DNA of 64,000 bases from a virus, in the IMG/VR virus record IMGVR_UViG_3300046787_000438, positions 88,412 through 152,411 of that record, one strand, 5' to 3'. This document shows positions 6,493 through 30,602 of this stretch, piece after piece; position 1 is the first letter of the stretch, and each line of letters starts with the position of its first letter. The notes beneath the pieces are model-generated. The model saw only the letters and a list, made by a program, of their open reading frames with translations. It was not told where the DNA came from and did not search any database. Position numbers and translations under genes: made by a program.

Positions 6493-6728
6493 TAGTCTTC
6501 TTCTTTCTTGTTATTATTGTTAGTTGCTTTTGCTCCAAAGTAGCCACCGAGAATACCGATGATTCCACCGAGAGCTGTCTGTACTAGGGTCATAACATCT
6601 GATGAAACTTCTACTGGCTCTCTTGTTGTCTGAGTTTCGATTGCAGCAACCACGTAATCACCAACGATTGCAAATAGAATTGCAAGCATTACGCCAGCTG
6701 CTAGAATCAGCATTGTTTTTTCTTTCAT
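6492..6728 (-). CDS. small two-TM membrane protein (holin-like)
   Basis: two hydrophobic helices, GGYFG, charged tail. Confidence 0.6.
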   Translation of the reverse strand: MKEKTMLILAAGVMLAILFAIVGDYVVAAIETQTTREPVEVSSDVMTLVQTALGGIIGILGGYFGAKATNNNNKKEED

Positions 6729-8644
6729 TACTTAATCTTTCTTGTTGAGGTATTTTCTGAGCGTCGTGAGCCGCCTGATGCGCCTCCGCCTCCGCCCGAG
6801 CTAGCTGCTGCTGAAGTTGCTGCGCCTGCTGCTCCTGTTGCTGCTGCGATAGCTGCGTTACCTGCAACAACTGCTGCAACAACTACCTTCTCTGACTCTT
6901 CACGAACCGCGGGTGCCATGTCAGCGCCAACGTTTGACATGAAGTTAATTGCATCAACGAGGGCTGCAGCACCTGGGATTGCTGCAAGCTCTGGAGAGAT
7001 AACGATGTCATCGGCAGCAGCTGCAATATACAAAGCATCGAGTGCTTGCTCGTATGCTGCTGAGCCCTTCTCTGCTGTCTCGAAGGTTTCGAGTGCTGCA
7101 TCCTTCAAGGCTTCTGCTTGCTTAGGTGATAGGTCAGTGGCTACAATCTCGGTGAGGTCGATCTTCGTTAGAAGTTCGGCGCTGATGATTTCTGGAAGTT
7201 GTTCAGCAGAAGTAATCTCTTCTTCTTTTACAACTGGCGGTTCTGGTTCCACTGGTGTAGGCTCTGGAGTAGGTTCAGGTTCCACGGCTGGTGGTTCTGG
7301 TGCAACGACGGGAGGTTCAGGTGTCGGTTCAACAACAGGTGGTTCAGGTACTACTACTGGCGGTTCTGGTTCCGCTGGTACCGTTGGTTCTGGTGTTGGC
7401 GCTACTGGTGGCTCTGGAGTGGGAGTCGGTGCTGGTGTTGGCTCTGGTTGCGGTTCTGGCGACGGACTTGGTGCTGGAGGCAAAGTTGGCTCTGGCTGTG
7501 GAGTCGGAGTCGGAGTCGGGGTTGGAGTAGGAGTAGGTTCTGGTACTACAACTGGTGGAACTGTAGGGGTAGGTTCTGGAGTTGGAGTAGGTACTGGCAC
7601 TGGTTCATATGCAACTACAAATATAAGAACTTTAACTGTGCCACCTGCTGGATCGCCGTAAATGTTTGACGACTCAATTGTTACAGAAGTCTGCCCACTA
7701 GCTAACTGAGTTAGTTGTGATGAAACTTCAACGCCTCGGGATCCATCATTAGGGTCACCATACCAAGCAGTAATGCTCAAGATACGTTGACCTTCAGGAG
7801 CTACTACTTGAACACTTGAGCCCTCTCCTAGAAGTGTTGCGCCTTCAGGAATATACGGAGCTGAGATAGGTGGAACAGTTGGTTCAGGTGTTGGCTCTGG
7901 AGTTACTACAGGTTCTGGTGTTACAACTGGTTCAGGAGTAGGAGTAGTGGTAGGAGTAGGCTCTACAGTTGGAGTCGGGGTTGGGGTCGGGTCAACTGTG
8001 GGTGCTGGGGTTGGTTCTAGTGTCGGTTCAGGTGTTGGCACAACGGGTTCTGGTGTTAGCACGGGCGGAGTCTCGACCTGAATGACACCATATTCTTCCA
8101 GAGTAACTACCTGACCACTAGTTAAAGTAACGCCAGTTCTTGTCTGACCTTCATAGGTGGGTCCAACAATTGAATAGGAGATAGCAACTGTTCCATCAAC
8201 ATTGATTGCGGCAACAATGTTAATGTTTGTCGGTTCTGTGGCGTTTTGTAGCCAGATAGGTCTGGCGGATATGTCTACTTGGAATCCGCCATCAGAGGCT
8301 GCAATAGTTAAGTGTTCGTCTGCTCGCGCCCAAGGGAACACAACCCAGTCCATCGAGTAGAGCGAGATCGACGGGGTTTGCGGGTAAGTCCAGTATGTTC
8401 CATCGGGACGTCCGAAGGTAATTACAGAGTTTGTTGTAGCAAAAACGTCAGTGTATTGAACTCCGTCAAAAGTTACAGTGGTTGTCAGAGGGATCTGATA
8501 CGAAGAATCATCTCCACCAGGTGTAGTTACTACTACCACTACGGGCTCTACTATGCTATCATCTGCAAAAGCAGTGGTTGCAGCTAGTAAAGGCCACCCT
8601 AGCGCTAACATTAAACTAAGGTATAGTCTGAAATATTTACGCAT
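6728..8644 (-). CDS. secreted/membrane Pro-Thr-Glu-rich surface protein
   Basis: signal peptide, two long PT/PE linkers, lectin-like YGDP..G..K.L segment, Ala/Gly-rich C-terminus with basic tail. Confidence 0.75.
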   Translation of the reverse strand: MRKYFRLYLSLMLALGWPLLAATTAFADDSIVEPVVVVVTTPGGDDSSYQIPLTTTVTFDGVQYTDVFATTNSVITFGRPDGTYWTYPQTPSISLYSMDWVVFPWARADEHLTIAASDGGFQVDISARPIWLQNATEPTNINIVAAINVDGTVAISYSIVGPTYEGQTRTGVTLTSGQVVTLEEYGVIQVETPPVLTPEPVVPTPEPTLEPTPAPTVDPTPTPTPTVEPTPTTTPTPEPVVTPEPVVTPEPTPEPTVPPISAPYIPEGATLLGEGSSVQVVAPEGQRILSITAWYGDPNDGSRGVEVSSQLTQLASGQTSVTIESSNIYGDPAGGTVKVLIFVVAYEPVPVPTPTPEPTPTVPPVVVPEPTPTPTPTPTPTPQPEPTLPPAPSPSPEPQPEPTPAPTPTPEPPVAPTPEPTVPAEPEPPVVVPEPPVVEPTPEPPVVAPEPPAVEPEPTPEPTPVEPEPPVVKEEEITSAEQLPEIISAELLTKIDLTEIVATDLSPKQAEALKDAALETFETAEKGSAAYEQALDALYIAAAADDIVISPELAAIPGAAALVDAINFMSNVGADMAPAVREESEKVVVAAVVAGNAAIAAATGAAGAATSAAASSGGGGGASGGSRRSENTSTRKIK

Positions 8645-8645
8645 A

Positions 8646-8948
8646 TTACTTGTCCCCTAACTCTTCAGCGTTCTTTAGGCGGACAACCTGAGAGAAAATA
8701 GCGTTAACTTCGTCCTGATCGATCTTTCCATCTTCAAGAAATGCGAGTGCAAGTTTCTCTACAACCTTGGCTACCGCTAGTAATCCTCCAAGGGATGCGG
8801 ACAGCCAGACGTCGATACCAATAATAGATCCAGCACCGATAACGGATAGGGCAGACGCGATAAACGTAGCTATAACTCTGTACGAGATGTCAAGAGTTAG
8901 CTTGGCTTTTTTGGTTTTGCTTTTAGGCTTTGATTTAGTGCTAGACAC
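8646..8948 (-). CDS. membrane protein (holin-like)
   Basis: hydrophobic helices followed by DGKID..EVN. Confidence 0.6.
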   Translation of the reverse strand: MSSTKSKPKSKTKKAKLTLDISYRVIATFIASALSVIGAGSIIGIDVWLSASLGGLLAVAKVVEKLALAFLEDGKIDQDEVNAIFSQVVRLKNAEELGDK

Positions 8949-9003
8949 TAGAGGCTCCTGTGTGCTGGATGGCCTCTCCCTGTAACTATTTTACCAGAAA
9001 TGC

Positions 9004-9032
9004 TTGTAAATGACTGTGATTGGGTATATACT
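9004..9032 (+). promoter_or_regulatory. SigA-type promoter for a candidate sRNA
   Basis: TTGTAA-17bp-TATACT. Confidence 0.6.
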
Positions 9033-9038
9033 GTAAGT

Positions 9039-9159
9039 GGTTCATTAAGTGCTCCAATCCATTTTGTGAACTCCTTTCTATTGTGTGCGGAAAGGCGGTC
9101 CAGGAACTTTAGGGTTTATTCATTCCCCTTCTTTCCGCCTGGGCCGCCTTTCTATTTTT
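9039..9159 (+). ncRNA. candidate ~120-nt small RNA
   Basis: promoter, no plausible gene, 15-bp stem (9090-9104/9138-9152) followed by a T tract. Confidence 0.45.
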
Positions 9160-9178
9160 GGGGGTATACTCTAAAACT

Positions 9179-9493
9179 ATGGATGAAGAGTATGAAATAG
9201 AGGTTCCTATTGAGCGGGAGCCTGTCGAGGGCTACGCTACCCCTAGTGACATCCAAAGGATTAGAGCTGAGTTCCTATCTGAATGGCTTAAGAGATGGGA
9301 AGGTATCTATATCTCTGAACGTAAGATACTTGAAGTATTTGGGGCTATGGGAATGACTATTGAGCTAGATGATCGTAATGGGGCTACTGCAATGGAAGCT
9401 CTTAAATACCTTGACTATGAGATAGATTCTGATAGTATCGATCCTATAAGCTTGGCTAGATATAAAATTAGCCGAGACAAAAAGAAGTACTAG
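9179..9493 (+). CDS. hypothetical protein (leaderless)
   Basis: TATACT just upstream of ATG 9179. Confidence 0.65.
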   Translation: MDEEYEIEVPIEREPVEGYATPSDIQRIRAEFLSEWLKRWEGIYISERKILEVFGAMGMTIELDDRNGATAMEALKYLDYEIDSDSIDPISLARYKISRDKKKY

Positions 9494-19198: not shown

Positions 19199-19221
19199 TT
19201 ACACATAGAAAGGGGTTCCAA

Positions 19222-19383
19222 ATGTATGGTTTGGACTTGACAGACCCAATGGTTAAGAAGGCTTACCAATTGGGATTTAACGATGGCCTGACCTGCGCGG
19301 TAGATAACGCGAAGGAGTTCGAGTACATCGACGAAGAGCAGGCAGATGACCTGCTTACTGAACTAGTAGAGATTGAGGCCTAG
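19222..19383 (+). CDS. small hypothetical protein (not in ORF track)
   Basis: SD AGAAAGGGG; 53-aa ORF MYGLDLTDPMVKKAYQLGFNDG... Confidence 0.65.
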   Translation: MYGLDLTDPMVKKAYQLGFNDGLTCAVDNAKEFEYIDEEQADDLLTELVEIEA

Positions 19384-19385
19384 TC

Positions 19386-19868
19386 ATGGGATTAGATATG
19401 TACCTTGAGGCACGCCGCTTTGTTAGCGGGTACGCGCACTCGGATGCAGCAGAGCGACAAATTTACGATACCGTTCTCGATGCAATCGGCCAGAGCGGTA
19501 AGGGTGATGAGCGGTTCGTCTATGTCAACTTCAACGTTGCGTACTGGCGCAAGACCAACCACATTCATAACTGGTTTGTGGCCAACGTTCAGGGCGGCGA
19601 GGATGACTGTAAGTCTTACTACGTCTCTCGCGAGAAGTTGCTGGAACTCGAGCAGTTGTGTAGGGACGTTGCTTCTAACGGAACCGAGGAGTACGCGCAA
19701 GAACATCTACCTACGGGTTCAGGTTTTTTCTTTGGCGGTACAGACTACGACGAGTACTACTTTGAGCAAACCGACTGGACAGCAAAGCGGCTTGCCGAGA
19801 TACTGGTAAGCATCCCAGAGAAGCCGAGCCTCACAGGTATCGACTTCTACTATTCAGCAAGTTGGTAG
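19386..19868 (+). CDS. MGLD-family phage protein
   Basis: MGLDMYL, YWRK.NHIHNWF, GFFFG.T.YDEYY, YYSASW. Confidence 0.75.
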   Translation: MGLDMYLEARRFVSGYAHSDAAERQIYDTVLDAIGQSGKGDERFVYVNFNVAYWRKTNHIHNWFVANVQGGEDDCKSYYVSREKLLELEQLCRDVASNGTEEYAQEHLPTGSGFFFGGTDYDEYYFEQTDWTAKRLAEILVSIPEKPSLTGIDFYYSASW

Positions 19869-19928
19869 AAGCGGCATGCGGCGAGCGCGTTCCAAATCAA
19901 GGGCGTGCGCTCGTTGTATGCTACTATC

Positions 19929-20234
19929 ATGCGCTCACTAGAAGTACACCTGTTCGAAACCGACTCTGACCTAGACTCTGCTATCGCTAGCGGAGCTGTA
20001 CTACCAGAGCAACTCATCCGAACCGTATGCATCGATTGCCAAGGACCAGTAGGTTTTGCTGGACTGGAGTTCGAACCCTTCGTTGTAGTCATAGACGAGA
20101 ATGACCAAGACTGGTTAGCATGCACCGATTGCGCAAAAGCTATCCTCAACTACGTGGACACATTCTTTCCGCCAGTCACAAAAAGTCACTTCGCTCATCA
20201 CCTCACAGATGACGAAGAATTCGACGCCTTCTAA
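19929..20234 (+). CDS. CxxC-containing hypothetical protein
   Basis: CIDC, CTDC; leaderless TACTAT. Confidence 0.6.
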   Translation: MRSLEVHLFETDSDLDSAIASGAVLPEQLIRTVCIDCQGPVGFAGLEFEPFVVVIDENDQDWLACTDCAKAILNYVDTFFPPVTKSHFAHHLTDDEEFDAF

Positions 20235-20235
20235 C

Positions 20236-20300
20236 TGTATTTATTTTTTGTCCAACACGCCGTAGTTCGTGTTGCGTAATGTTATACCCTTTGCTATAGT
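20236..20300 (+). promoter_or_regulatory. 17-mer TGTATTTATTTTTTGTC copy 1 + promoter
   Basis: motif 20236-20252; TTGCGT 20272, TATAGT 20295. Confidence 0.8.
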
Positions 20301-20329
20301 TGGATTACCAATAGAAAGGGGTTTCCCAA

Positions 20330-20848
20330 ATGGGAATGGATGTTTATGGCAAGAACCCAGTAAATGAAACTGGGCAATACTTCCGCCGAAATGTGTGGGG
20401 CTGGCATCCTCTATGGGGTTATGTGGAAGACACTTACCCAGAGATTGCCGAACTGGTCGAACACGCACACAGCAACGATGGCGATGGCTTGGGTGCGAGA
20501 AATGCTAAGAAGTTAGCGAAACTTTTGATGAGCGATTACGAAACTGGCAAAGCCAAGGAGTATGTCGAGGAACGCAACAAGGCTATTTCAGAGTTGCCTT
20601 TTGATGAGTGCCGTCTATGTGCTGGCACAGGTATTCGCACAGACGAGATTGCGGTAAATGCTGGTATGCCAACTCAAGAGTTGCGACCAGACATTGCGAT
20701 TATCGTTGGTCGAACTCACGGAACTTGTAATGCTTGTAGTGGCCTAGGTAAGACAGAGCCTTGGGCAAGCAACTACTACCTAGAGCCAGACGACATAAAA
20801 GAGTTTGCCGAGTTCCTAGTGAACTCTGGTGGATTTGAGATTTGCTAG
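20330..20848 (+). CDS. MGMD-family protein with DnaJ-type zinc-finger insert
   Basis: MGMDVYG, CRLCAGTG, CNACSGLG. Confidence 0.75.
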   Translation: MGMDVYGKNPVNETGQYFRRNVWGWHPLWGYVEDTYPEIAELVEHAHSNDGDGLGARNAKKLAKLLMSDYETGKAKEYVEERNKAISELPFDECRLCAGTGIRTDEIAVNAGMPTQELRPDIAIIVGRTHGTCNACSGLGKTEPWASNYYLEPDDIKEFAEFLVNSGGFEIC

Positions 20849-20913
20849 ACCCTGACTAAAAGTCAAACACCTGAGCCAAGTGTCTAAACTGGCTCATCTT
20901 TTTGATTGGAAGT

Positions 20914-21006
20914 TGTATTTATTTTTTGTCTACCCCCGAGGGGCGACACGCCGAAAAAGATTTTCATAGATAGATTTGACATTCCGTAAAAAGTTTGCTT
21001 TACTTT
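20914..21006 (+). promoter_or_regulatory. 17-mer copy 2 + promoter
   Basis: motif 20914-20930; TTGACA 20976. Confidence 0.75.
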
Positions 21007-21055
21007 ACTTACTGACCAAAAGGGCAGACACGACACACGAAAGGGGCTAGTCGAA

Positions 21056-21670
21056 ATGACTACCACAGCAACAGCAACACCAAAGATTGTAGGCAACGCA
21101 CTCTACCTAGAGTTGGTTGGCGACACTACTATGCCCGAGGACAAACTACGCCAAATGCTCGGGTGGCAACACAAGGGAACTAAGCAGGTTCTCATGTTCC
21201 CCGAGTATCAGGACGACATGGGCAAGACCCACAGCGCAGTCATTATGACCAGAGTTATCACAGAGAACTCCCCACGCGCTCAATGGGACATGAACTACAT
21301 GGCTCGCAATCGTCCGAAGCCACAGTTGGCAGATAACGATTCTTACTACGCCAACTACCCAGAATACAGCAACGCCGAGTGGGACGCACTAACAAGTCGT
21401 GAGCAGTTTGAGGCTCGTAAGCGTGCCATAGCAATCCTGCTCAAGAATGTAGTGCTTGACACTTACTACTCCGAGCCAGACGCAGAGGGCAATCGCACAA
21501 CGCTCGCAGGGCAGGGTTGGGTTGTTCGTGAGGGAAAACCAATCGCAGTTGAGATTACTGACCAAGACATGACAGAACTTCACAGCGACAGCAAAACTCC
21601 ACAGGCAGTTATTCGCCGAATCAACAAAGTTCGCACGACACTTGACAAGTTCCCAGCAAAACTTGTATAG
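21056..21670 (+). CDS. hypothetical protein
   Basis: SD GAAAGGGG. Confidence 0.75.
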   Translation: MTTTATATPKIVGNALYLELVGDTTMPEDKLRQMLGWQHKGTKQVLMFPEYQDDMGKTHSAVIMTRVITENSPRAQWDMNYMARNRPKPQLADNDSYYANYPEYSNAEWDALTSREQFEARKRAIAILLKNVVLDTYYSEPDAEGNRTTLAGQGWVVREGKPIAVEITDQDMTELHSDSKTPQAVIRRINKVRTTLDKFPAKLV

Positions 21671-21714
21671 TTTCTAATAGATACACACGACACGACACGA
21701 AAGGGGCGAAAGCC

Positions 21715-22779
21715 ATGTATCAGCAAAAAGTAGTAGCAGAACACACGAACCCAGACCTAGCAGGATTGGACTTCGACAAACTGGCAGAGGCGGTTTCTAG
21801 CGCAGTATCAAGCAAGGCGTTTGGAATCACAACTTCGGTGATTGACGACTTGCTAACTCCAGCAGGACGAGCAACTATCAGAGTAAAGACAGGGGCAAAG
21901 CCTACTTCACCTATCTCACTTGATTCTCTTGTAGAATCGAAAGAGGAAAAGGCAGAGGTAAGCATGGAACTTGGTGAAACACTTGAGGGCGCAGAATCAT
22001 ACGCTCGTCCAAATGGCGACTTGTATTATGGTCGCAAGTGGGGCGAAAATGTAGATGTCGAAGTTCTACGCAAAGCACGAGAAGCAGGTGCTTATGTCAT
22101 GTTGTATGGAGTCCCTGGAACTGGTAAGACCGCTATGGTCGAAGCCGCTTTTCCAGATGAACTTTACACAATCTTGGGTTCGGGCGACACAGAGGTTTCT
22201 GACTTGGTGGGTGGCTATGTCCAGACCCCGAGTGGCGGTTTTGAGTGGGTGGACGGAGTTTTGACTCGTTCGGCACTTGAGGGCAAAGTTCTACTGATTG
22301 ACGAGATTGGTCTGATTGACCCAAAGGTTCTTTCGGTGGTCTATGGTCTAATGGACGGCAGACGAGAACTGACCATTAGCGCAAACCCAGAGCGAGGCAC
22401 TATCAAAGCACAAGAGGGTTTTTATGTCGTGTCAGCGACTAACCCAAATGTCGCAGGTGTTCGCTTGTCAGAGGCACTTCTATCTCGCTTCGCCATTCAG
22501 GTCGAAATGACAACTGACTGGGCGTTGGCAAAGAAGTTGGGTGTTCCGCAGAGTGCCGTTGTCGCTTCACAGAACTTGGCAAAGAAAATGGAGAATGGCG
22601 AAACTTCATGGTCGCCACAGTTCCGAGAGTTGCTTGCGTTCAGGGACTTGTCAAAGTTGTTCGGAACGAAGTGGGCGGTTCAGAACTTGCTCGCTTCTGC
22701 CCCAGAGATTGACAGACCAGTTGCGTCAGATGTATTCACCCGAGTATTCGGAGAGGCGATTCTGCCAGCCAAGATTTAG
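21715..22779 (+). CDS. MoxR/CbbQ/CobS-like AAA+ ATPase
   Basis: Walker A GVPGTGKT, Walker B LLIDEI, SATNP, SEALLSRF. Confidence 0.92.
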   Translation: MYQQKVVAEHTNPDLAGLDFDKLAEAVSSAVSSKAFGITTSVIDDLLTPAGRATIRVKTGAKPTSPISLDSLVESKEEKAEVSMELGETLEGAESYARPNGDLYYGRKWGENVDVEVLRKAREAGAYVMLYGVPGTGKTAMVEAAFPDELYTILGSGDTEVSDLVGGYVQTPSGGFEWVDGVLTRSALEGKVLLIDEIGLIDPKVLSVVYGLMDGRRELTISANPERGTIKAQEGFYVVSATNPNVAGVRLSEALLSRFAIQVEMTTDWALAKKLGVPQSAVVASQNLAKKMENGETSWSPQFRELLAFRDLSKLFGTKWAVQNLLASAPEIDRPVASDVFTRVFGEAILPAKI

Positions 22780-22807
22780 TAGGTGGTCGTGTCCCTACTG
22801 AAACCCC

Positions 22808-22869
22808 GAGAGTAGCGCAAGAAAAATGTTTGCGAAAACACTTGCGCTACTCTCAAAAGGGTGTATAGT
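22808..22869 (+). promoter_or_regulatory. 14-bp inverted repeat overlapping the VWA-gene promoter
   Basis: GAGAGTAGCGCAAG (22808-22821) / CTTGCGCTACTCTC (22841-22854); TTGCGC..TATAGT. Confidence 0.65.
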
Positions 22870-22908
22870 TAGACATACAACAACAAAGCCAGATGAAAGG
22901 GAAAGCAA

Positions 22909-24774
22909 ATGGCACACTACAGTTCTAAGGGAAAATCAAGACTTACCAAGCGCACTAGCGCAACTCCGTCAGAGTGGTATCGTGTTTGCTCACAGATTGG
23001 TCGTCTAGTAAACGACTGGTCATGGAGAAGCGACCTTGCCGTTTATGGTGGCGAGGATTCATGCGAGGGTCGTGCGATAGCAGGATACTACGCCGAGATT
23101 GCCGAGATTGAGATAGATGTTCGCAAGGCGTTTGGAGAGGGCGTTAGCCCAGACTTCGTTGGCGACCTAAACGAAAAGGCAACTCGCTACGAGTTCCCAA
23201 TGGTTTCAGGAATCCTATTCCATGAGGCACTTCACGCTCGCCACACAGGCTGGGACACAGCCTACTTGTCAGAGCAGTTTGAGAACATAGAAGCACAGGC
23301 GTTCATGGCACTTGAGGAATCTCGTATCGAATCTCGTGGCGTGAAAGAGCGACCAGAGAATCGTTTGTTCCTACGCACTTCGGCGTTGGACATGGCACTT
23401 GAGGGCGTAAACGAATCAGCACTCGCAAAACTTGGTGGCGACAAATGGATTACAGCGAATCTCGCAACTCTATCTATCGCACGAGTGGACGCAGGTGTTC
23501 TTGAGGTTTCAGACATCAGCGAGATTTACAAAGAGGTTGTCAGCGTTCTTGGTCAAGACTTGTTTGACGAACTACGCAAAGTTTGGATTGCGTTTCAGGC
23601 ACTAGGCGTTCCACAGATTGACGAGGCGATTGCGCTCGCTAAGAAGTGGGTCGAACTTTTGCGTGAGGCAGACCCAGAGGGCGAGCCAAACAAGGACGAA
23701 GTTGGCGACCCATTCGCAGAGGAATCTGGCGAGGGTGAGGGCGAGGGCGAAAGCGAATCTGGCGAGGGCAAGGGCGAAATGTCAGAAGCCATGAAGCAGT
23801 TGGTTTCTAAACTTTCAGATTCAGCGAGCAAGACAGAAGCAAACGCAGAGCAAGCACTTGGCGACCAAGAGCGCAAAGAGAAGTGGGACGAGGAATCAAA
23901 GGCACGCCAGAGCGAAGCGCAGAAAAACAATCAGCGCAAGCAGGAAGCCAAAAAGATTTTCGACAAGAGCCACAACGAAAGTGGTTCTGGTTCTAACTCA
24001 CGAGTAAGCGAACGCCGAGTGCCAACTGGCGCAGAGCGAGCCAGCGCAGTCCAGATTGCTAAGGCGTTGGAAAAGGCGAAGTATCGTGAGCGTTCTGTCC
24101 ATGTTCGCAAGCACCAAGCACCACAGGGTCGCTTGATTGCTCGCAACGCAGTCCAGAACAAGGCTATGGAATCTATGGGATTGCGTGGCGAGTTGCCAGC
24201 GTGGAAGTCAAAGACACGCAAGCACACAGACGACCCAACTCTCAAGATTGGTGTCATGGTGGACATCTCTGGTTCTATGGGTTCGGCTATGGAATCTATG
24301 GGAACTACGGCTTGGGTTCTATCGGAAGCAGGTCGCCGAATCCAAGCGGAAACCGCTATGATTTACTACGGCTCGGGTGTCTTTTCAACTCTACGCCGAG
24401 GTCAGCGATTGAGCGAGGTTTCTATCTACACCGCACCAGACGGAACGGAAAAGTTTGCCGAGGCGTGGGAAGCACTTGACGGCGAACTCGGATTGACTTT
24501 CACAGACGGCGTGCGTTTGTTGGTAATCGTGTCGGACGGAAACTACACACCGAAGCAGACCGAGAGTGCCAAGCAGATTCTCCAAGAGTGTAAACGGAAC
24601 GGCGTGGCAGTCTTGTGGATTACCCCGAAAGATTGCTACTCGCTTGGGGCAAGGCACATCATCAACGGCTCGGGTTGGGGAATCCACTTGGATAACCTTG
24701 ACACGAATGAGATTGCTTCACTTGTCGGCAAGACGGCAAGCGAAGCGTTGGGTAAGGTCGGCTCGCTCATGTGA
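22909..24774 (+). CDS. CobT-like zincin + VWA domain protein
   Basis: HEALH...LEESRIE, acidic G/E linker, MIDAS DISGSM, IVSDG. Confidence 0.88.
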   Translation: MAHYSSKGKSRLTKRTSATPSEWYRVCSQIGRLVNDWSWRSDLAVYGGEDSCEGRAIAGYYAEIAEIEIDVRKAFGEGVSPDFVGDLNEKATRYEFPMVSGILFHEALHARHTGWDTAYLSEQFENIEAQAFMALEESRIESRGVKERPENRLFLRTSALDMALEGVNESALAKLGGDKWITANLATLSIARVDAGVLEVSDISEIYKEVVSVLGQDLFDELRKVWIAFQALGVPQIDEAIALAKKWVELLREADPEGEPNKDEVGDPFAEESGEGEGEGESESGEGKGEMSEAMKQLVSKLSDSASKTEANAEQALGDQERKEKWDEESKARQSEAQKNNQRKQEAKKIFDKSHNESGSGSNSRVSERRVPTGAERASAVQIAKALEKAKYRERSVHVRKHQAPQGRLIARNAVQNKAMESMGLRGELPAWKSKTRKHTDDPTLKIGVMVDISGSMGSAMESMGTTAWVLSEAGRRIQAETAMIYYGSGVFSTLRRGQRLSEVSIYTAPDGTEKFAEAWEALDGELGLTFTDGVRLLVIVSDGNYTPKQTESAKQILQECKRNGVAVLWITPKDCYSLGARHIINGSGWGIHLDNLDTNEIASLVGKTASEALGKVGSLM

Positions 24775-25025
24775 GTCCCTTGCCCTAACGGAGTGCCTAA
24801 CCGATTGGATTGAGCATAGTGCCAGACCCCCCTTACTGGTCGCTCTCCTAACGGACGGGACACTAGAAGCCCCTATCAACTCTTTCCCCCATTGGTTGGT
24901 AGGGGTTTCGCCATACCCAAGACGGATAGGTGCTTGCGTGGTATTAGCGTGCTAGGGATTGACGGCTCGTCAGAAGTTCTCGTGAAAAGCAGGTGACAGA
25001 CTTTTCTGATTTTCGAGCCAGAGGT

Positions 25026-25090
25026 TGTATTTATTTTTTGTCGAAAACTTCGTATCTTGATTTGACATGACTAAAAAAGTCAGGTAAGTT
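25026..25090 (+). promoter_or_regulatory. 17-mer copy 3 + promoter
   Basis: motif 25026-25042; TTGACA 25062, TAAGTT 25085. Confidence 0.8.
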
Positions 25091-25142
25091 TGGAACTACC
25101 AAACAGGGACGAACAAGAAGTAGTCCCAAAGGGGGTGTCAGA

Positions 25143-25481
25143 ATGGCAACAGCCACTAAGACCCAAGACCAGACCCAGACGAAAGTCTTGGTCAAAGTTT
25201 CACGCAAGTTCGTTGCTATGTTGGACGAACTCAAAGATGTTCGTGCTACTTACAATCAGGCAGACAAGCGTATTGCCGAACTGCGTAAGGACATCTTTGC
25301 CGTAGTTGGCGAACAAGCCCAGACTCTAACCCACAATGGGGTTGAGGTCGCCGTAATCGTTGCCCAGACCAAAGAGGTTGTGGACATGGACTTGCTGAAA
25401 GCCAACTTCCCAGAGGTGTATCAGGCTTGCCTAGTGAGCAAGACCCAATACCCTATTCGTGCGGTATCTCGCTCGAAGTAG
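25143..25481 (+). CDS. hypothetical protein, paralog of 33399-33743
   Basis: TLTHNG.E.A...VD...L...FPE.Y.AC shared. Confidence 0.75.
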   Translation: MATATKTQDQTQTKVLVKVSRKFVAMLDELKDVRATYNQADKRIAELRKDIFAVVGEQAQTLTHNGVEVAVIVAQTKEVVDMDLLKANFPEVYQACLVSKTQYPIRAVSRSK

Positions 25482-25486
25482 TCGAG

Positions 25487-25517
25487 AGGGGCAGGGGGAA
25501 ATCCTTGCCCCTTTTTT
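25487..25517 (+). terminator. intrinsic terminator
   Basis: GGGGCAGGG/CCTTGCCCC stem + T6. Confidence 0.75.
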
Positions 25518-25529
25518 CTGAAGCGAGTA

Positions 25530-25603
25530 TGTATTTATTTTTTGTCTGCGATTCCGACCCGCCGTCAAAAGTTGTGGCGAATGTCGCAACGCCGTAGTAA
25601 GTT
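25530..25603 (+). promoter_or_regulatory. 17-mer copy 4 + promoter
   Basis: motif 25530-25546; TGGCGA 25575, TAAGTT 25598. Confidence 0.75.
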
Positions 25604-25629
25604 AGAACTATAAGAAAGGGGAGTTCACA

Positions 25630-25965
25630 ATGAGTGAGCCATTAGAACTACAAGACATAGCAGGACTTAGCCTGACGATTATTGGCGTGTTGATTGAGAG
25701 TTATGTGAACGAGGGATACGCCGACCCAACAATGTATAAGGCGTTGTCTGCGACTGCCGAACTAGCAGAGCAGTTTCAGGCACGAGCAAAGTATGACAAC
25801 GCACCTAGCGATGTTGTCGAATCTATCGCCGACTTGCTAGTGAATCTCAAACTCACAGCGATTGAGTGCGGAGAAGTTGTAGAGCGAATCATCAAAGAGC
25901 AGGGAATCGAAGTCAAGGGCGATTGGTCTGCCCACACTTGCGACGACCCAGAACACGACCACTAG
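25630..25965 (+). CDS. hypothetical protein
   Basis: SD AGAAAGGGGAG. Confidence 0.75.
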   Translation: MSEPLELQDIAGLSLTIIGVLIESYVNEGYADPTMYKALSATAELAEQFQARAKYDNAPSDVVESIADLLVNLKLTAIECGEVVERIIKEQGIEVKGDWSAHTCDDPEHDH

Positions 25966-25974
25966 GAGAGAATC

Positions 25975-26277
25975 GTGAATCTAAACTTTAGAACTGCCCT
26001 CGGAGAAATCTTGCGAGAGAAGCGACACGAGTTAGGTCTGAACTTGCGTCAGGTTTCCAGCAAAGGTTTCGTGGCACTCGGATACTTGAGTGAAGTTGAG
26101 CGTGGACAGAAAGACGCTTCATCAGAAACTCTAGAAGCGATTGCTCAAGGCTTGGGCGTAGAAGTTTACGAACTTGTCGTAGAAGCAGGGTTGCGGATGG
26201 CAAATGCCCCAGACAGCCCAGAAAGTCTTTTCACTCGGAACGCCGATTGGTCAAAGCAATACGCCGACCTCTCATAG
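25975..26277 (+). CDS. XRE-family regulator, ClgR/PopR-like
   Basis: LGEILR..R...LRQVS....VALGYLSEVERGQKDASSE.L.AI. Confidence 0.85.
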   Translation: MNLNFRTALGEILREKRHELGLNLRQVSSKGFVALGYLSEVERGQKDASSETLEAIAQGLGVEVYELVVEAGLRMANAPDSPESLFTRNADWSKQYADLS

Positions 26278-26295
26278 CCCCGATAGCCACAACTC

Positions 26296-26331
26296 AAAGC
26301 CCCTAAGCAGATTGCTTGGGGGTTTTGTTTT
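26296..26331 (+). terminator. intrinsic terminator
   Basis: GCCCCTAAGCA/TGCTTGGGGGT stem + T tract. Confidence 0.75.
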
Positions 26332-26356
26332 GCCCGATTATTTTGCGCCGTGCGTC

Positions 26357-26430
26357 TGTATTTATTTTTTGTCGCAGAGTTTTCGCCACGAACGATTTTG
26401 GTTTGCCAAATGTCGGTAGCAGGGTATAGT
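26357..26430 (+). promoter_or_regulatory. 17-mer copy 5 + promoter
   Basis: motif 26357-26373; TTGCCA 26403, TATAGT 26425. Confidence 0.8.
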
Positions 26431-26457
26431 ATCGAACTATCAAAGAAAGGGGACAGA

Positions 26458-26712
26458 ATGTCCAGCAACTATCCAGAGGGGTCAATGCGTGGTTCGGGTA
26501 TCTATGCCGAGGACTACACAGGAACTTTTTATTGCTCGGCTTGTGATGATGAATACTCGCTAGATGGAACTACTGACGATTGGGGCTACAACGCTTCAGC
26601 CGAATGTCCAGACTGCGGTGCGACTTTGGAGGTAGAACTTCCAAGCCGAGAAGAACGAGATGAGGACGCTGATTACGATTCTTATCGTGATAGCCAAATG
26701 GATTGGAACTAA
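26458..26712 (+). CDS. zinc-ribbon protein
   Basis: CSAC, CPDCG; SD AGAAAGGGG. Confidence 0.75.
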   Translation: MSSNYPEGSMRGSGIYAEDYTGTFYCSACDDEYSLDGTTDDWGYNASAECPDCGATLEVELPSREERDEDADYDSYRDSQMDWN

Positions 26713-26713
26713 A

Positions 26714-26950
26714 ATGAGTCGTATCGCAAGAGAAAACCCAGAAGCAACATACGAAGAACTTTTTGATTTAGGACTGCGTGGAAGCGTGCGGGTCAGAGAG
26801 GGAGAGCAACTCCACCAATACGATTGCCGTCAATGCGGAGAGATTGTAATGGTAGACCAAGAGCAACACGAACGCTTACAGTATTTCCGTAGCCACCCAA
26901 AAGAGTTTGGGACTAGAACGCCAAAGTGCGGAGATTGTTGGGTGAACTAG
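26714..26950 (+). CDS. zinc-ribbon protein
   Basis: CRQCG, CGDC. Confidence 0.7.
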   Translation: MSRIARENPEATYEELFDLGLRGSVRVREGEQLHQYDCRQCGEIVMVDQEQHERLQYFRSHPKEFGTRTPKCGDCWVN

Positions 26951-27043
26951 CCCACCAAAGTCTTCCCCCGAATAATCAGGAACAGAGATTCCGATTCGGG
27001 GGATTTTCTTTTGTCTGGTGCGTTTTTATTTTTTAGGTTTGGG

Positions 27044-27118
27044 TGTATTTATTTTTTGTCCAGCTTCGACACACGCTCGCGGGATTGGTTTGCGGTTTGC
27101 TAGCGCTCGCCGTATGAT
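27044..27118 (+). promoter_or_regulatory. 17-mer copy 6 + promoter
   Basis: motif 27044-27060; TTGCGG 27090, TATGAT 27113. Confidence 0.8.
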
Positions 27119-27149
27119 TAGATTGTTCACAAAAGGAAGGGGTTCCCAA

Positions 27150-27539
27150 ATGGGTTCACGAACAGAATGGATTATCAAGACGAACACTAGCGATAGTGCG
27201 CTTCACCTATACAGCCACTATGGTGGAGAGTCAAAGTTTGAGGATACACAGCAAGCGCTATTCAAGGCTCAGCCTCGCTGGAACGACATTAGTTATGGCG
27301 CTCGTATCTTCACTAGCCAAATTATTGGCAACGATTGGGGCAGCGAAACTGGATTCGGCATTGCCATTGGTAATGACACAGACAACATGTTTGAGGAGAG
27401 TTACTTTCACGCCGTCATTGACTTTCCAAATCAGTTAGTTACTTTCGGTTCTATGACTTGGACTTTTGATGAGTTCGTGGTTGCCGACAACTTTCAAGAG
27501 ATTCTGGTTGAGGAGTATTGGGCAGAGGTGAGCGTCTAA
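27150..27539 (+). CDS. hypothetical phage protein
   Basis: MGSR..LYSHYGG...RWND.SYGARI...ETGFGI; SD before ATG 27150. Confidence 0.75.
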   Translation: MGSRTEWIIKTNTSDSALHLYSHYGGESKFEDTQQALFKAQPRWNDISYGARIFTSQIIGNDWGSETGFGIAIGNDTDNMFEESYFHAVIDFPNQLVTFGSMTWTFDEFVVADNFQEILVEEYWAEVSV

Positions 27540-27829
27540 TGGGCGCACTTCACGCTAACGCCATTGCCGCCGATACAGCGATTCCACTAGAGAAACAACT
27601 GGAGTGGCACTTACAAGGTAATCACTTTCCGCCGATTCCAAAATCTATGGTCATTCCATGCGAGGAAGCGATTCAGGCTTTCTGGGAAGATGACTTAGAG
27701 AGGTTGATTAGTCTTCCAGATGGAGTTGGATACAAAGGTTTGACAGTTGCCCCTGCGAGGGCGATTATTATCGAACACCACCTAGACGCCTGGTGCGTTG
27801 AGTATGACGAAGAGGATTCAGACTTCTAG
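27539..27829 (+). CDS. hypothetical phage protein
   Basis: WHLQGNHFPPIP...IIEHHLDAW. Confidence 0.7.
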   Translation: MGALHANAIAADTAIPLEKQLEWHLQGNHFPPIPKSMVIPCEEAIQAFWEDDLERLISLPDGVGYKGLTVAPARAIIIEHHLDAWCVEYDEEDSDF

Positions 27830-27851
27830 TCAATAAGAGATAGACCCCGTC

Positions 27852-27960
27852 AGCGATTAGCATTGACGCTAATCGCTTTCGGCTTGCTAGGGTTTATCCC
27901 CCTTTTCCCTAGCATGCGGGTAGCAGATTCCCCCCTTTTCTGCTACCCGCTTTTCTTTTT
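27852..27960 (+). ncRNA. three tandem hairpins with C-rich loops (candidate 3'UTR-derived sRNA/terminator)
   Basis: stems 27852-27877, 27886-27913, 27916-27950 + T tract. Confidence 0.45.
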
Positions 27961-27995
27961 GCCGTTTTGTTTTTCTTTTTTTTTGTTTTACAAAG

Positions 27996-28069
27996 TGTAT
28001 TTATTTTTTGTCTGTCAGATCAAAGCGCCGTTCGCAAAGGTGGAAAATGTCAGAGGATTTTAGTAAAGT
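27996..28069 (+). promoter_or_regulatory. 17-mer copy 7 + promoter
   Basis: motif 27996-28012; TGGAAA 28041, TAAAGT 28064. Confidence 0.75.
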
Positions 28070-28107
28070 TGTAGTAGTTGGAAGTTCCAACAGATAAGGG
28101 GGCAGAG

Positions 28108-28470
28108 ATGCCAAAGACAGCAGTCATTGTGACTACCAAGGCGGAGGTCAGCATTATTGACATTGCCGAAGGTTCACTAAAGAAATTACAAAGCGCCGTA
28201 GATGGCTTGATTCAGCCAATCGACCTAGACGCAAATGTGACTATGTGGGTGAACGAAGAGGGCTTGCTACGCAGTGACCTTGAGATGAACGACATTGCCA
28301 CAAGCCTTTACGCTCAAATGTATGACATCACTAACCCACTAATGGGAGATGTTGTCTTCACTGGTGGCACAGATGGAGAGGGCGAAACGCTCGGACTAGG
28401 CGACGACTATGTGAACGCAATCTACGCCCTAGTCGATAACTACAAACAGGTTATGTCGCAGTTCGCATAA
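28108..28470 (+). CDS. DUF3846-like protein
   Basis: LKKLQSAVDGLIQ, MWVNEEG, N.IAT.L, L.GDVVFTG. Confidence 0.8.
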   Translation: MPKTAVIVTTKAEVSIIDIAEGSLKKLQSAVDGLIQPIDLDANVTMWVNEEGLLRSDLEMNDIATSLYAQMYDITNPLMGDVVFTGGTDGEGETLGLGDDYVNAIYALVDNYKQVMSQFA

Positions 28471-28483
28471 CTAACAAAGACAC

Positions 28484-28516
28484 AGCCCCTCGCAGAAATG
28501 CGGGGGGTTTCTTTTT
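28484..28516 (+). terminator. intrinsic terminator
   Basis: CCCCTCGCA-GAAA-TGCGGGGGG + T tract. Confidence 0.75.
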
Positions 28517-28548
28517 ACCCTAAACAAAAACTTTACGCGCTCGCGGGG

Positions 28549-28623
28549 TGTATTTATTTTTTGTCAAGCTGCCGTATTATGCGCCGTGAAAAGTTTGCGC
28601 TTGTCAGAGGTTGGTGGTAGGTT
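28549..28623 (+). promoter_or_regulatory. 17-mer copy 8 + promoter
   Basis: motif 28549-28565; TTGCGC 28595, TAGGTT 28618. Confidence 0.8.
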
Positions 28624-28646
28624 TGGAACAAGGAAAGGGGACAGAG

Positions 28647-28883
28647 ATGTCAATGCTAAAGACTAAGAACTACAACGCAGAGTTTGCGTTCGAGCAAGTC
28701 ATTCGCCTAGTAGGTGGCGCAAGCGAGTATGGCGACAGCACCAAGGCTAGTATCTGGGCAGAGTGCCACAACAACGAAACTATCGAGATGTTGGCGGGTA
28801 TGTATCTGGTTGGTTCATCAGAGCGTGCGGAACGCAACCTTGCTCGTCTAAACGATAAGTTGCGACAGGTATTCGGTATCTAA
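28647..28883 (+). CDS. hypothetical protein
   Basis: SD GGAAAGGGG. Confidence 0.7.
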   Translation: MSMLKTKNYNAEFAFEQVIRLVGGASEYGDSTKASIWAECHNNETIEMLAGMYLVGSSERAERNLARLNDKLRQVFGI

Positions 28884-29230
28884 TGGCTATGACTTATCAA
28901 GAGCGTAAAGCCAAGGGCTTGCGACAGCGTGCGGAGTATCGTAATCGTCTACACCACGCAGAACACCTTGCCGTAATGTTTCGTGGGTTCGGTATTGGAT
29001 TTAGTTTTATTACAGTAATGACAGCCGTTGCTGGAGTTCACGGAACTTTAGCGATTGCGTTGTTCATTATGTTTATGTTGATTGCTGGTTCAGGTTTTAT
29101 TGGCGCAGAACACATTATGTTTTGGGCAGAGCAAAGCCGTTATCCAAAGAGTCGCCGTAGAACTTTACGAAGCGAGTTCGCAGATGAGTGGCGTAGATTT
29201 AGACAGTACCGAAAAGTAGAAAAGGGTTAG
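28883..29230 (+). CDS. two-TM membrane protein
   Basis: hydrophobic core; TAATG coupling. Confidence 0.7.
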   Translation: MAMTYQERKAKGLRQRAEYRNRLHHAEHLAVMFRGFGIGFSFITVMTAVAGVHGTLAIALFIMFMLIAGSGFIGAEHIMFWAEQSRYPKSRRRTLRSEFADEWRRFRQYRKVEKG

Positions 29231-29232
29231 AA

Positions 29233-29700
29233 GTGAAAATGGTAACGATAGGTGACTCGGTTGCCTCGCTAGAAGTTAGAAATAACGCAGACAATACTGG
29301 ACTAGAACTAGAAGTTTGGGTCACTAAGCGTGTTGGCTCGTTCTATGCTCTATTGGGCTACGGAGTATTCGGAGTGCCATTAGGCATGAGTGAAGTAGAT
29401 TTCTACACAGATACCCTATACCCGATTATGAAGAGCGCACCCCTCACCACAAGTCAGCCAAGCCGAATGGCGTTGGATTTTGATGGCTCTATGAAAAGAG
29501 CAGAGGCACACATAATCAGCCATAGAAACAACCACCCATTCTCAAATAAAACTCGGTCTGTATCCCCTGAAGAGGGCTTAGCAAAAATGCTAGGCGCAGG
29601 GGCAAAATACTTGACTATTTTGGCGGAGATAAATGGAGTTACGCCACGCACTATGGAAACTATGCGTAAGAGGTCAAAAGAGTATTACGCAAAACAATAA
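29233..29700 (+). CDS. hypothetical protein with C-terminal HTH-like segment
   Basis: ILAEINGVTPRTM. Confidence 0.65.
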   Translation: MKMVTIGDSVASLEVRNNADNTGLELEVWVTKRVGSFYALLGYGVFGVPLGMSEVDFYTDTLYPIMKSAPLTTSQPSRMALDFDGSMKRAEAHIISHRNNHPFSNKTRSVSPEEGLAKMLGAGAKYLTILAEINGVTPRTMETMRKRSKEYYAKQ

Positions 29701-29795
29701 GAGTTAGCCCCCCACTAACAAAAGCCCCCATTATGTTCATTCATAGTGGGGGTTTTGTTTTGCTCGAAGCGTTTTGTGTTTTTTTACACTCGCCG

Positions 29796-29879
29796 TGTAT
29801 TTATTTTTTGTCTATATGTGGGGCAACTTTTTACGGAGCGCCGTAAGATGTTTGATTTATTTGGTTTATAGGATACGAT
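29796..29879 (+). promoter_or_regulatory. 17-mer copy 9 + promoter
   Basis: motif 29796-29812; TTGATT 29852, TACGAT 29874. Confidence 0.8.
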
Positions 29880-29902
29880 TGAACTACATAGAAGGGGAGC
29901 AA

Positions 29903-30589: not shown

Positions 30590-30602
30590 CAACCAAAGAC
30601 CC

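What the first reader, a model, noticed from the sequence alone, without database searches (positions are those of the whole stretch)
9004..9159. Candidate sRNA displaying an anti-Shine-Dalgarno / 16S-tail mimic
Seen: a promoter (TTGTAA-17-TATACT), ~120 nt without a plausible gene, then a 15-bp stem and T tract. It carries ACTCCTTTCTA (9070-9080), close to the actinobacterial 16S 3' tail CCUCCUUUCU, and its loop contains TTCCCCTTCTTTC. Its segment TTGTGAACTCC is an exact 11-nt complement of GGAGTTCACAA at the RBS/start of early gene 25630, with further pairing possible to the adjacent AGAAAGG. Many genes outside the island appear leaderless. Inference: a trans-acting RNA that silences SD-led (early or host) mRNAs while sparing leaderless ones.
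Basis: partly seen in the sequence, partly recalled or inferred. Interest (0 to 1): 0.7.

Follow-up and report, generated by a model that had tools for sequence, protein, structure and literature searches.

The report
Actinophage small RNA with anti-Shine-Dalgarno seed
A clade of uncultured lake actinobacterial phages keeps a stand-alone, folded RNA gene of about 95-122 bases whose only invariant exposed stretch copies the tail of the ribosome's 16S RNA, so it probably blocks ribosome-binding sites on messages; nobody has yet seen the RNA or an effect.

Summary

**What it is.** Window 9004-9160 is a free-standing small-RNA gene of a 152-kb actinophage. Evidence from 13 related contigs (7 lineages):
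- The -35 and -10 boxes are kept while the spacer drifts.
- A 5' hairpin and a 16-bp terminator hairpin are kept through compensatory changes (97% of cells paired, 11 pairs changed on both sides, 0 of 500 shuffles).
- The only invariant unpaired block is the 9-nt core CUCCUUUCU (9071-9079). It matches the 3' tail region of an actinobacterial 16S rRNA and is predicted single-stranded in every variant.
- No ORF on either strand survives the comparison.
- The downstream genes differ between lineages and have their own promoters.

**Likely function.** It most likely masks Shine-Dalgarno sites.

**Limits and corrections.**
- In this phage the three best duplexes genome-wide are the start regions of early-cassette genes at 19222, 20330 and 27150.
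- This extended pairing is not reproduced in two other phages.
- The C-rich loop motif is deleted in most lineages.
- Most genes outside the island are not leaderless.
- No transcript data were obtainable, and there is no Rfam match.

The scan has noted similar anti-SD RNAs in other phages; those are unverified AI notes.

The parts
8988..8996 (-). Context: extended -10-like element (TGG + TAAAAT on the minus strand) for the divergent holin-like operon. It sits back to back with the RNA's -35 box.
   Evidence: Read. The block is invariant in all 10 sequences and is also present in the L037, L041 and L281 sequences. Its role as a promoter is inferred.
9004..9032 (+). Promoter of the small RNA: -35 TTGTAA, 17-nt spacer, -10 TATACT.
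   Evidence: 9 of 12 consensus positions. In one search both boxes are invariant while the spacer varies. L041 has TTGCAT-17-TATACT at the same place.
9039..9072 (+). 5' hairpin, starting at or next to the predicted transcript start.
   Evidence: Folds. Five of its 11 pairs show changes on both sides. Other lineages have hairpins of different sequence at the same place.
9071..9079 (+). Invariant 9-nt core CUCCUUUCU, which matches the 3' tail region of actinobacterial 16S rRNA. It is the proposed seed.
   Evidence: Invariant in all 13 family members. Mean unpaired probability is 0.67-0.94 in 9 variants. The 16S gene of an Amycolatopsis genome reads the same letters at its 3' end. The 9-mer occurs once in the window on either strand.
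9080..9088 (+). Single-stranded 3' flank of the core (with G9089 it forms the block AUUGUGUGCG). It is conserved in 5 of 7 lineages.
   Evidence: It differs in L041 and L038.
9089..9159 (+). Intrinsic terminator: 16-bp stem (9089-9104 with 9138-9153), a 33-nt loop and a U-rich tail.
   Evidence: All cells of this helix are paired, and 6 of its 15 modelled pairs change on both sides. The loop shrinks to 6 nt in three lineages. One U-G pair is invariant, and the sense strand folds 5-17 kcal/mol better than the antisense strand in 9 variants.
9165..9181 (+). Separate -10-like box (TATACT, 9165-9170), 8 nt before the ATG (9179) of the next gene (9179-9493). That gene has no SD and is probably leaderless or nearly so.
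   Evidence: The box and its spacing are conserved in the window group. The distant group instead has TTGACA-17-TATAGT plus an SD-led 90-aa gene.
19199..19230 (+). Predicted target: translation start region of early-island gene 19222.
   Evidence: Duplex -31.5 kcal/mol. 13 contiguous pairs to the seed. Among the top 3 non-self duplexes genome-wide.
20305..20334 (+). Predicted target: translation start region of early-island gene 20330.
   Evidence: Duplex -31.3 kcal/mol. 13 contiguous pairs to the seed. Among the top 3 non-self duplexes genome-wide.
27123..27157 (+). Predicted target: translation start region of early-island gene 27150.
   Evidence: Duplex -35.3 kcal/mol. It is the best non-self duplex in 38,094 windows of the genome.
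25608..25637 (+).
   Evidence: Exact 11-mer complement. Duplex -24.1 kcal/mol, which lies inside the background tail.

Best explanation
Window 9004-9160 is an independent gene for a non-coding RNA of about 122 nt, and 95-103 nt in other lineages.

**Proposed working**
- Host RNA polymerase starts at about 9039 from a sigma-70/SigA-type promoter and stops at the terminator ending at 9159.
- The RNA is a 5' hairpin, a single-stranded linker of about 16-25 nt, and the terminator hairpin.
- The linker displays the 9-nt core that copies the anti-Shine-Dalgarno tail of 16S rRNA.
- The core pairs with Shine-Dalgarno sequences, and the flanks pair with neighbouring bases. This covers the ribosome-binding site and start codon and lowers translation.
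- It needs no chaperone, like the C-rich small RNAs of Gram-positive bacteria.
- The messages hit hardest would be those with the longest SD. In this phage these are the early-cassette genes (SD AGAAAGGGG), above all 19222, 20330 and 27150.

**Shown:** gene architecture, conservation, structure, strand, absence of coding, and an accessible invariant core.

**Inferred:** transcription, pairing in the cell, translational repression, and which messages (phage or host) matter.

**My odds:** about 0.85 that it is a real independent structured RNA gene, and about 0.45 that SD masking of phage early messages is its main job.
For: **Conserved, independent gene**
- Relatives were fetched through the two flanking genes and by a DNA pattern.
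- In one search the -35 and -10 boxes are invariant, the spacer varies, and a 19-nt block containing the core is invariant.
- A covariance model finds the RNA at the same position next to the neighbouring genes in more distant phages. Examples are L041 (E 5e-12), L038 (E 2e-6) and L281/L284 (E about 1e-14 to 1e-15).
- The downstream neighbour differs between lineages: a leaderless 104-aa gene, an SD-led 90-aa gene with its own consensus promoter, or a 58-aa gene.

**Structure and strand**
- 97.4% of cells are paired and 11 of 26 pairs change on both sides. No shuffle in 500 reached this, and slid controls reached at most 55% paired.
- The sense strand folds 5-17 kcal/mol better than the antisense strand in 9 variants.

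**No coding on either strand**
- The + strand ORF is broken in relatives.
- The minus-strand ATG is ACG in the distant group, and the possible minus-strand peptides are unrelated between lineages.
- No gene was called in this interval in any relative.

**Core**
- It is the only invariant unpaired block, and it is predicted open in every variant.
- It reads the same as the 16S 3' tail region of an actinobacterium.

**Targets**
- The top 3 non-self duplexes among 38,094 genome windows are early-gene start regions.
- No flank shuffle in 60 reached the observed top-3 sum in this phage.
- Island start regions pair longer with the seed (mean 7.6 against 5.7 contiguous pairs). At least 8 pairs occur in 10 of 24 island genes against 14 of 158 others.

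**Precedent**
- The actinobacterial B11/6C sRNA represses by pairing to ribosome-binding sites (PMC10470900).
Against: - There is no transcript evidence.
- The pairing beyond the 9-nt core is lineage-specific. In two other phages the cognate flanks do no better than shuffled flanks (12 of 60 and 41 of 60 shuffles).
- The 20330 ortholog of the distant group keeps only about 11 pairs, although that group's RNA has the same 3' flank.
- A 9-nt seed identical to the ribosome's own tail gives no advantage over ribosomes. An effect would therefore need high RNA levels.
- The conserved 3' flank (AUUGUGUGCG) is not explained by any conserved phage target.
- The reverse complement of the window-group RNA looks like an early-cassette start region. 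Part of the complementarity could therefore reflect descent from an inverted copy rather than selection for pairing.
- The host is unknown, so host targets could not be assessed.
Confidence: 0.5

Rival explanations
1. The same small RNA acts mainly on host messages. The core plus the conserved 3' flank would pair with one or a few host translation start regions as part of host take-over, and the matches to phage early genes would be incidental.
For: - The 10-nt flank after the core is conserved in 5 of 7 lineages, but no conserved phage target explains it.
- Known phage small RNAs often act on host genes (review PMC12197685; lambda PreS preprint 10.1101/2024.10.31.621285, listed).
Against: - The host is unknown.
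- The 17-nt reverse complement of core plus flank was not found in 401 genomes of one candidate host family. That is only a sample and required an exact match.
- The flank is not kept in L041 and L038.
Confidence: 0.2
2. It is a cis-acting leader of the downstream operon. The promoter at 9004 would drive genes 9179 onward, and the hairpin would be an attenuator, a processing or stabilising element, or an insulating terminator rather than the end of a free RNA.
For: - It has the same orientation as the next genes and lies directly upstream of them.
- The U tract is imperfect in relatives, so some read-through is plausible.
Against: - A separate conserved -10 box lies 8 nt before the ATG in the window group. 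The distant group has a consensus TTGACA-17-TATAGT promoter after the hairpin.
- The downstream gene differs between lineages while the RNA stays.
- No alternative antiterminator fold is evident, and the 10 GC-rich upper stem pairs have no competitor.
Confidence: 0.12
3. It is a decoy of the 16S 3' tail for a protein rather than for mRNA. One example would be a pseudo-substrate or sponge for host ribonuclease toxins that cut off the anti-SD region during abortive infection. Another would be a sponge for some other protein that reads the 16S tail.
For: - The invariant element reads the same as the 16S tail rather than being its complement.
- Mycobacterial MazF-mt11 and RelE1 remove the anti-SD region of 16S rRNA (PMC12274833, PMC12620021).
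Against: - The MazF-mt11 site CACCU lies just upstream of the copied part and is absent from the RNA in the lineages read.
- There is no neighbouring toxin or antitoxin gene.
- The idea rests on analogy alone.
Confidence: 0.07
4. It is a non-functional leftover: an inverted remnant of an early-cassette translation start region that happens to lie next to a hairpin, or a translated minus-strand mini-gene.
For: - On the minus strand the window reads like an SD, an 8-nt spacer, an ATG and a 5-codon ORF.
- That reading resembles the start regions of 19222 and 20330.
Against: - The ATG is ACG in the distant group, and the possible peptides differ entirely between lineages.
- The promoter boxes are conserved, compensatory changes keep the + strand folds, and the G-U pairs fit only the + strand.
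- The core is invariant across 7 lineages although the neighbouring genes have diverged, to 44-81% identity for the holin-like protein across the 80 loci.
Confidence: 0.04

Closest known systems
6C / B11 small RNA of Actinobacteria (Rfam 6C; PMC10470900, which cites PMC6486639)
   Same: - It acts in the same host phylum.
- It is short and made of hairpins.
- It acts without a chaperone.
- Exposed pyrimidine-rich stretches pair with G-rich ribosome-binding sites and repress translation of several messages.
   Different: - 6C is a host gene with two hairpins whose loops carry runs of C.
- Here the seed is a linear linker between the hairpins. It reads like the 16S tail (C/U mixed), and the one C-rich loop is not conserved.
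- No Rfam match was found.
- This RNA is phage-encoded.
C-rich RBS-masking sRNAs of Bacillota (LhrC, RsaE/RoxS, RNAIII hairpins)
   Same: The principle is the same: UCCC/CUCC-type seeds occlude Shine-Dalgarno sequences. This rests on my own knowledge and on notes from the scan.
   Different: - They act in a different phylum and are host-encoded.
- Their seeds usually sit in loops and are often repeated.
- No sequence or structural homology was detected.
c4 antisense RNA of phages P1/P7 (review PMC12197685)
   Same: It is a phage-encoded RNA that blocks translation of a phage gene by pairing around its ribosome-binding site.
   Different: - According to that review, c4 pairs specifically with the ant mRNA around its ribosome-binding site and serves immunity.
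- Here the conserved part is generic (anti-SD-like), and the gene stands alone in a lytic-type genome region.
T4 RegB endoribonuclease (PMC3014915)
   Same: It is a functional analogue of the proposed role: a phage factor that inactivates many early messages by attacking their GGAG Shine-Dalgarno sequences.
   Different: RegB is a protein nuclease that works with ribosomal protein S1. Here an RNA would mask the sites rather than cut them. There is no homology.

Membership tests
Trans-acting, RBS-occluding small RNA (functional class) | Own promoter and own intrinsic terminator, independent of neighbouring genes | tested here: met
   - The promoter boxes are conserved while the spacer varies.
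- The terminator is kept by compensatory changes.
- The downstream genes differ and have their own promoters.
Trans-acting, RBS-occluding small RNA (functional class) | No conserved ORF on either strand | tested here: met
   - The + strand ORF is broken in relatives.
- The minus-strand ATG is not conserved.
- No gene was called there in any relative.
Trans-acting, RBS-occluding small RNA (functional class) | Conserved, accessible seed complementary to translation start regions | tested here: met
   - The core is invariant in 13 members and has an unpaired probability of 0.67-0.94.
- It pairs with the AGAAAGGGG-type SDs of early genes.
Trans-acting, RBS-occluding small RNA (functional class) | Target pairing conserved or co-varying across relatives | tested here: not met
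   - Only the 9-nt core/SD pairing is shared.
- Cognate flanks do no better than shuffled flanks in two other phages.
- The 20330 ortholog of the distant group keeps about 11 pairs.
Trans-acting, RBS-occluding small RNA (functional class) | A discrete transcript and a measurable effect on target translation | not testable with these tools
6C / B11 sRNA family (Rfam) | Match to the Rfam covariance model | tested here: not met
   There was no hit at gathering score over the whole window. There was also no hit at E up to 10 over 8900-9250.
6C / B11 sRNA family (Rfam) | Two hairpin loops carrying conserved C runs | tested here: not met
   Only one loop has a CCCC run. That loop is deleted or replaced in the other five lineages.
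Cis-acting 5' leader / transcription attenuator | No promoter between the element and the regulated gene, and the same regulated gene across relatives | tested here: not met
   - A consensus promoter follows the hairpin in the distant group, and a conserved -10 box follows it in the window group.
- The downstream genes differ.
Cis-acting 5' leader / transcription attenuator | An alternative fold that competes with the terminator | tested here: inconclusive
   The linker could pair with the base of the 5' arm (6 bp), but the GC-rich upper stem has no competitor. The ensemble is dominated by the terminator fold.

The most novel reading that the evidence does not exclude
The RNA is a generic, abundant mimic of the ribosome's anti-SD tail. 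It would titrate strong Shine-Dalgarno sites across the whole cell during infection. Translation would then shift from strong-SD messages (the phage's own early cassettes and many host messages) to weak-SD and leaderless ones, such as the apparently leaderless gene placed right after it. That would be an RNA-based switch of ribosome specificity, not a gene-specific regulator.
Probability: 0.15. Interest if true: 0.8.

Novelty: new member of a known kind. Interest (0 to 1): 0.5.

Why it matters
- The review of phage-derived small RNAs that I read (PMC12197685) mentions no mycobacterial, actinobacterial or Streptomyces example. Two full-text searches for such cases turned up none.
- This is a clean, comparative-genomics-supported example with a simple, testable seed. 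It is not in Rfam.
- If it masks Shine-Dalgarno sites of the phage's own early cassettes, it would be an RNA counterpart of protein systems such as T4 RegB that shut off early translation.
- If the strong reading holds (global titration of SD sites that favours leaderless messages), it would bear on how actinobacteria balance the two modes of initiation. These bacteria have many leaderless messages.
- The same design has been noted by this scan in unrelated phages (unverified notes). A tested example would therefore have reach beyond this clade.

Tried and rejected
- **Known RNA families:** the Rfam scan at gathering score on the whole window found nothing. At E up to 10 on 8900-9250 there were only meaningless weak hits. 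No tRNA or tmRNA was found.
- **Cultured phages:** blastn of the region against the phage records gave no match. The nearest named phage by terminase is Actinomycetia phage DSL-LC01, which does not share the gene order at this locus.
- **Exact 16-mer scan of viral contigs:** 23 hits, all chance RBS-like matches except the one true relative.
- **Gapped core-to-stem pattern:** viral contigs gave 30 hits, but only the already known relatives are real. Prokaryote genomes gave 120 or more chance hits and no family member. No host or prophage copy was found.
- **Other phages with the neighbouring gene:** about 75 other loci that carry the neighbouring holin-like gene lack the RNA.
- **+ strand 66-aa ORF and minus-strand 5-codon ORF:** rejected as genes.
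- **Gene 25630 as the conserved target:** its orthologs in two other phages pair with their own RNAs over 11-15 bases. This is not better than background.
- **The divergent holin-like gene as target:** duplexes are only -14 to -24 kcal/mol and are not conserved.
- **Host target search:** the 17-nt complement of core plus flank was not found in 401 genomes of one candidate host family.
- **Functions of predicted targets and neighbours:** no Pfam hits were found. The only PHROG hits were for two neighbours: the 100-aa protein (a family labelled nuclease, and weakly holin) and the 638-aa protein (a family of unknown function).

Full report
**Setting**

The window is the last 64 kb of a 152,411-bp virus record with direct terminal repeats. 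Its large terminase is 73% identical to that of Actinomycetia phage DSL-LC01 and about 61-64% identical to those of Microbacterium phages. It is therefore an actinobacterial phage of about 47% G+C.

The finding lies in a 230-bp gap between two sets of genes:
- On the minus strand is a pair of genes: a 100-aa holin-like membrane protein (8646-8948) and a 638-aa Pro/Thr-rich protein.
- On the plus strand is a run of small genes starting at 9179.

**Observation**

- The stem has 16 pairs including two G-U pairs, with a 33-nt loop. The RNA from 9038 to 9162 folds at -45 kcal/mol, z = -5.1.
- The fold is a 5' hairpin (9039-9072), an open linker of 16 nt that starts inside the 16S-like stretch, and the terminator hairpin (9089-9153).
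- The 11-mer complement to 25620-25630 is exact. As a bare statistic it is near chance: with one mismatch allowed, 4 matches were found against 1.25 expected.
- There is no Rfam family and no tRNA here.

**Relatives**

The cultured-phage collection has no match to the DNA. Metagenomic relatives were reached in several ways:
- through the downstream 104-aa protein;
- through the holin-like protein;
- through a 19-nt pattern.

In the first ten sequences the pattern is that of a gene, not of a spacer:
- The -35 and -10 boxes are invariant while the 17-nt spacer between them changes.
- The bases after the -10 box vary.
- A 19-nt block containing the 16S-like stretch is invariant.
- Both hairpins change by compensating substitutions.
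- The 33-nt loop is replaced by a 6-nt loop in the more distant group.

A covariance model built from nine sequences then found the element at the same position in still more distant phages. These were L041 (E 5e-12), L038 (E 2e-6) and L281/L284 (E about 1e-14 to 1e-15).

The model found one copy in the phage's own genome. It found none in about 75 other loci that carry the holin-like gene, nor in pattern scans of viral and prokaryotic genome collections. The family is thus confined to one clade, with seven sequence lineages in hand.

**Structure, strand and coding**

- On the 13-member alignment, 97.4% of cells form standard pairs and 11 of 26 pairs show changes on both sides.
- No shuffle in 500 reached these values. 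Sliding the partners by 1-3 columns dropped pairing to 39-55%. The alignment was fitted to the model, so these counts lean towards the structure.
- The 5' hairpin has quite different sequences in different lineages yet always forms.
- G-U pairs, one of them invariant, fit only the plus strand. The sense strand folds 5-17 kcal/mol better than the antisense strand in all nine variants tested.
- The 66-aa plus-strand ORF across the region is interrupted by stops or shifted in relatives.
- On the minus strand the window reads like a ribosome-binding site followed by ATG and five codons. That ATG is ACG in the distant group, and the possible peptides in other lineages are unrelated.
- No source pipeline called a gene in this interval in any relative.

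**Independence from the downstream gene**

- In the window group a conserved TATACT lies 8 nt before the ATG of gene 9179, which has no SD. That gene probably has its own start and little or no leader.
- In the distant group the hairpin is followed by a consensus TTGACA-17-TATAGT promoter and an SD-led 90-aa gene.
- In L281 the downstream gene is a different, 58-aa gene.

The RNA unit stays while its downstream neighbour changes. This argues against a leader or attenuator.

**The functional core**

Across all lineages the only invariant unpaired block is the 9-nt core at 9071-9079.
- In L041 the match to the 16S tail extends to 11 nt.
- The 16S gene of an Amycolatopsis genome reads the same letters at its 3' end. 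This agrees with the 11-nt tail that MazF-mt11 removes in mycobacteria (PMC12274833).
- The core is predicted unpaired in every variant, with mean probability 0.67-0.94.
- The 10 bases after it are conserved in five lineages but not in L041 or L038.

**Targets**

The early island (about 19.2-33.8 kb) consists of cassettes. Each has a terminator, a repeated 17-mer, a promoter and a long SD, mostly AGAAAGGGG. This SD pairs with the core exactly as it pairs with 16S rRNA.

A sliding duplex scan of both strands of the whole genome was run over 38,094 windows. After the trivial self-antisense hit, the top three were all early-gene start regions:
- gene 27150 at -35 kcal/mol;
- gene 19222 at about -31 to -34 kcal/mol;
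- gene 20330 at about -31 to -32 kcal/mol.

The background tail begins at -28. Gene 25630 reaches -24, which is inside the background.

Two further tests in this phage agree:
- With the core held fixed and the flanks shuffled, no shuffle in 60 reached the observed top-3 sum.
- Island start regions pair longer with the seed than other genes do. At least 8 contiguous pairs occur in 10 of 24 island genes against 14 of 158 others.

The extension does not generalise:
- In the complete relative G001 and the fragment G002, the cognate flanks do no better than shuffled flanks (12 of 60 and 41 of 60 shuffles).
- The orthologous start regions differ.
- The 20330 ortholog in the distant group keeps only about 11 pairs, although its RNA has the same flank.
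- Pairing with the divergent holin-like gene is weak and not conserved.
- The reverse complement of the window-group RNA resembles an early-cassette start region. It may descend from an inverted copy of one. That would explain the extra complementarity in this lineage without excluding function.

**Leaderless claim**

- Of 182 predicted starts, 133 have at least 5 contiguous pairs to the 16S tail.
- A frequent TAGGAT lies 6-8 nt before the ATG.
- Only gene 9179 has a clear leaderless layout.

**Mechanism and rivals**

The best-supported reading is a chaperone-independent small RNA that masks ribosome-binding sites. It works like the actinobacterial B11/6C RNA (PMC10470900) and like the C-rich RNAs of Bacillota. 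It is not a member of those families. In function it recalls T4 RegB, which inactivates early messages at their GGAG sites (PMC3014915).

The rivals are:
- a mainly host-directed regulator, which would explain the conserved flank; no hit was found in 401 genomes of one candidate family;
- a cis-acting leader;
- a decoy of the 16S tail for proteins such as the anti-SD-cleaving toxins of mycobacteria (PMC12274833, PMC12620021); the MazF-mt11 site is not in the RNA;
- a non-functional remnant.

No transcript data could be obtained, so expression itself remains inferred.

**Novelty**

The principle is well known, and phage small RNAs are known. The review I read lists no actinophage case and no anti-SD-tail RNA, and two full-text searches found none.

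Other agents of this scan have reported similar designs in unrelated phages. Those are unverified notes, and I did not use them as evidence.

I rate this a new member of a known kind. It is well supported as a gene, and its targets remain open.

Noticed in passing
window 9165-9181 (also L001, L026-L028, L036): Gene 9179-9493 has no Shine-Dalgarno sequence. It has a conserved TATACT box ending 8 nt before its ATG, so it looks leaderless or nearly so. In the distant group an SD-led 90-aa gene with a consensus promoter is inserted ahead of its homolog.
   Followed up: partly
window 8988-8998, minus strand: The block that reads TCTGGTAAAAT on the minus strand (an extended -10-like element) is conserved in six of the seven lineages read here. 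It sits back to back with the RNA's -35 box. It is probably the promoter of the holin-like operon.
   Followed up: partly
whole genome, e.g. window 4863, 16947, 52664: Many genes carry TAGGAT 6-8 nt before the ATG. The motif can be read either as an AGGA Shine-Dalgarno sequence or as a TANNNT -10 box of a leaderless message. Sequence alone does not decide which.
   Followed up: no
window 19200-33800: The early cassettes share a terminator, a 17-mer (TGTATTTATTTTTTGTC), a promoter and a long SD of the AGAAAGGGG type. The same SD type heads the orthologous genes in two related phages (G001, G002). The perfect AGAAAGGAG never occurs on either strand of the window outside the RNA gene.
   Followed up: partly
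window 6728-8948, minus strand: A 100-aa membrane protein hits a PHROG labelled nuclease and, weakly, holin. It is followed by a 638-aa protein with an N-terminal hydrophobic segment and long Pro/Thr-rich linkers. Relatives of the 100-aa protein are very common in lake metagenomes (382 clusters), and the large partner varies in length from about 550 to about 1,120 aa.
   Followed up: no
window 8955-8967 versus 9071-9089: The plus strand opposite the holin-like gene's ribosome-binding site reads CTCC followed directly by TGTGTGC. The RNA linker has the same two pieces separated by 7 nt. This may be a trace of common origin or chance. The resulting pairing is weak and not conserved.
   Followed up: partly
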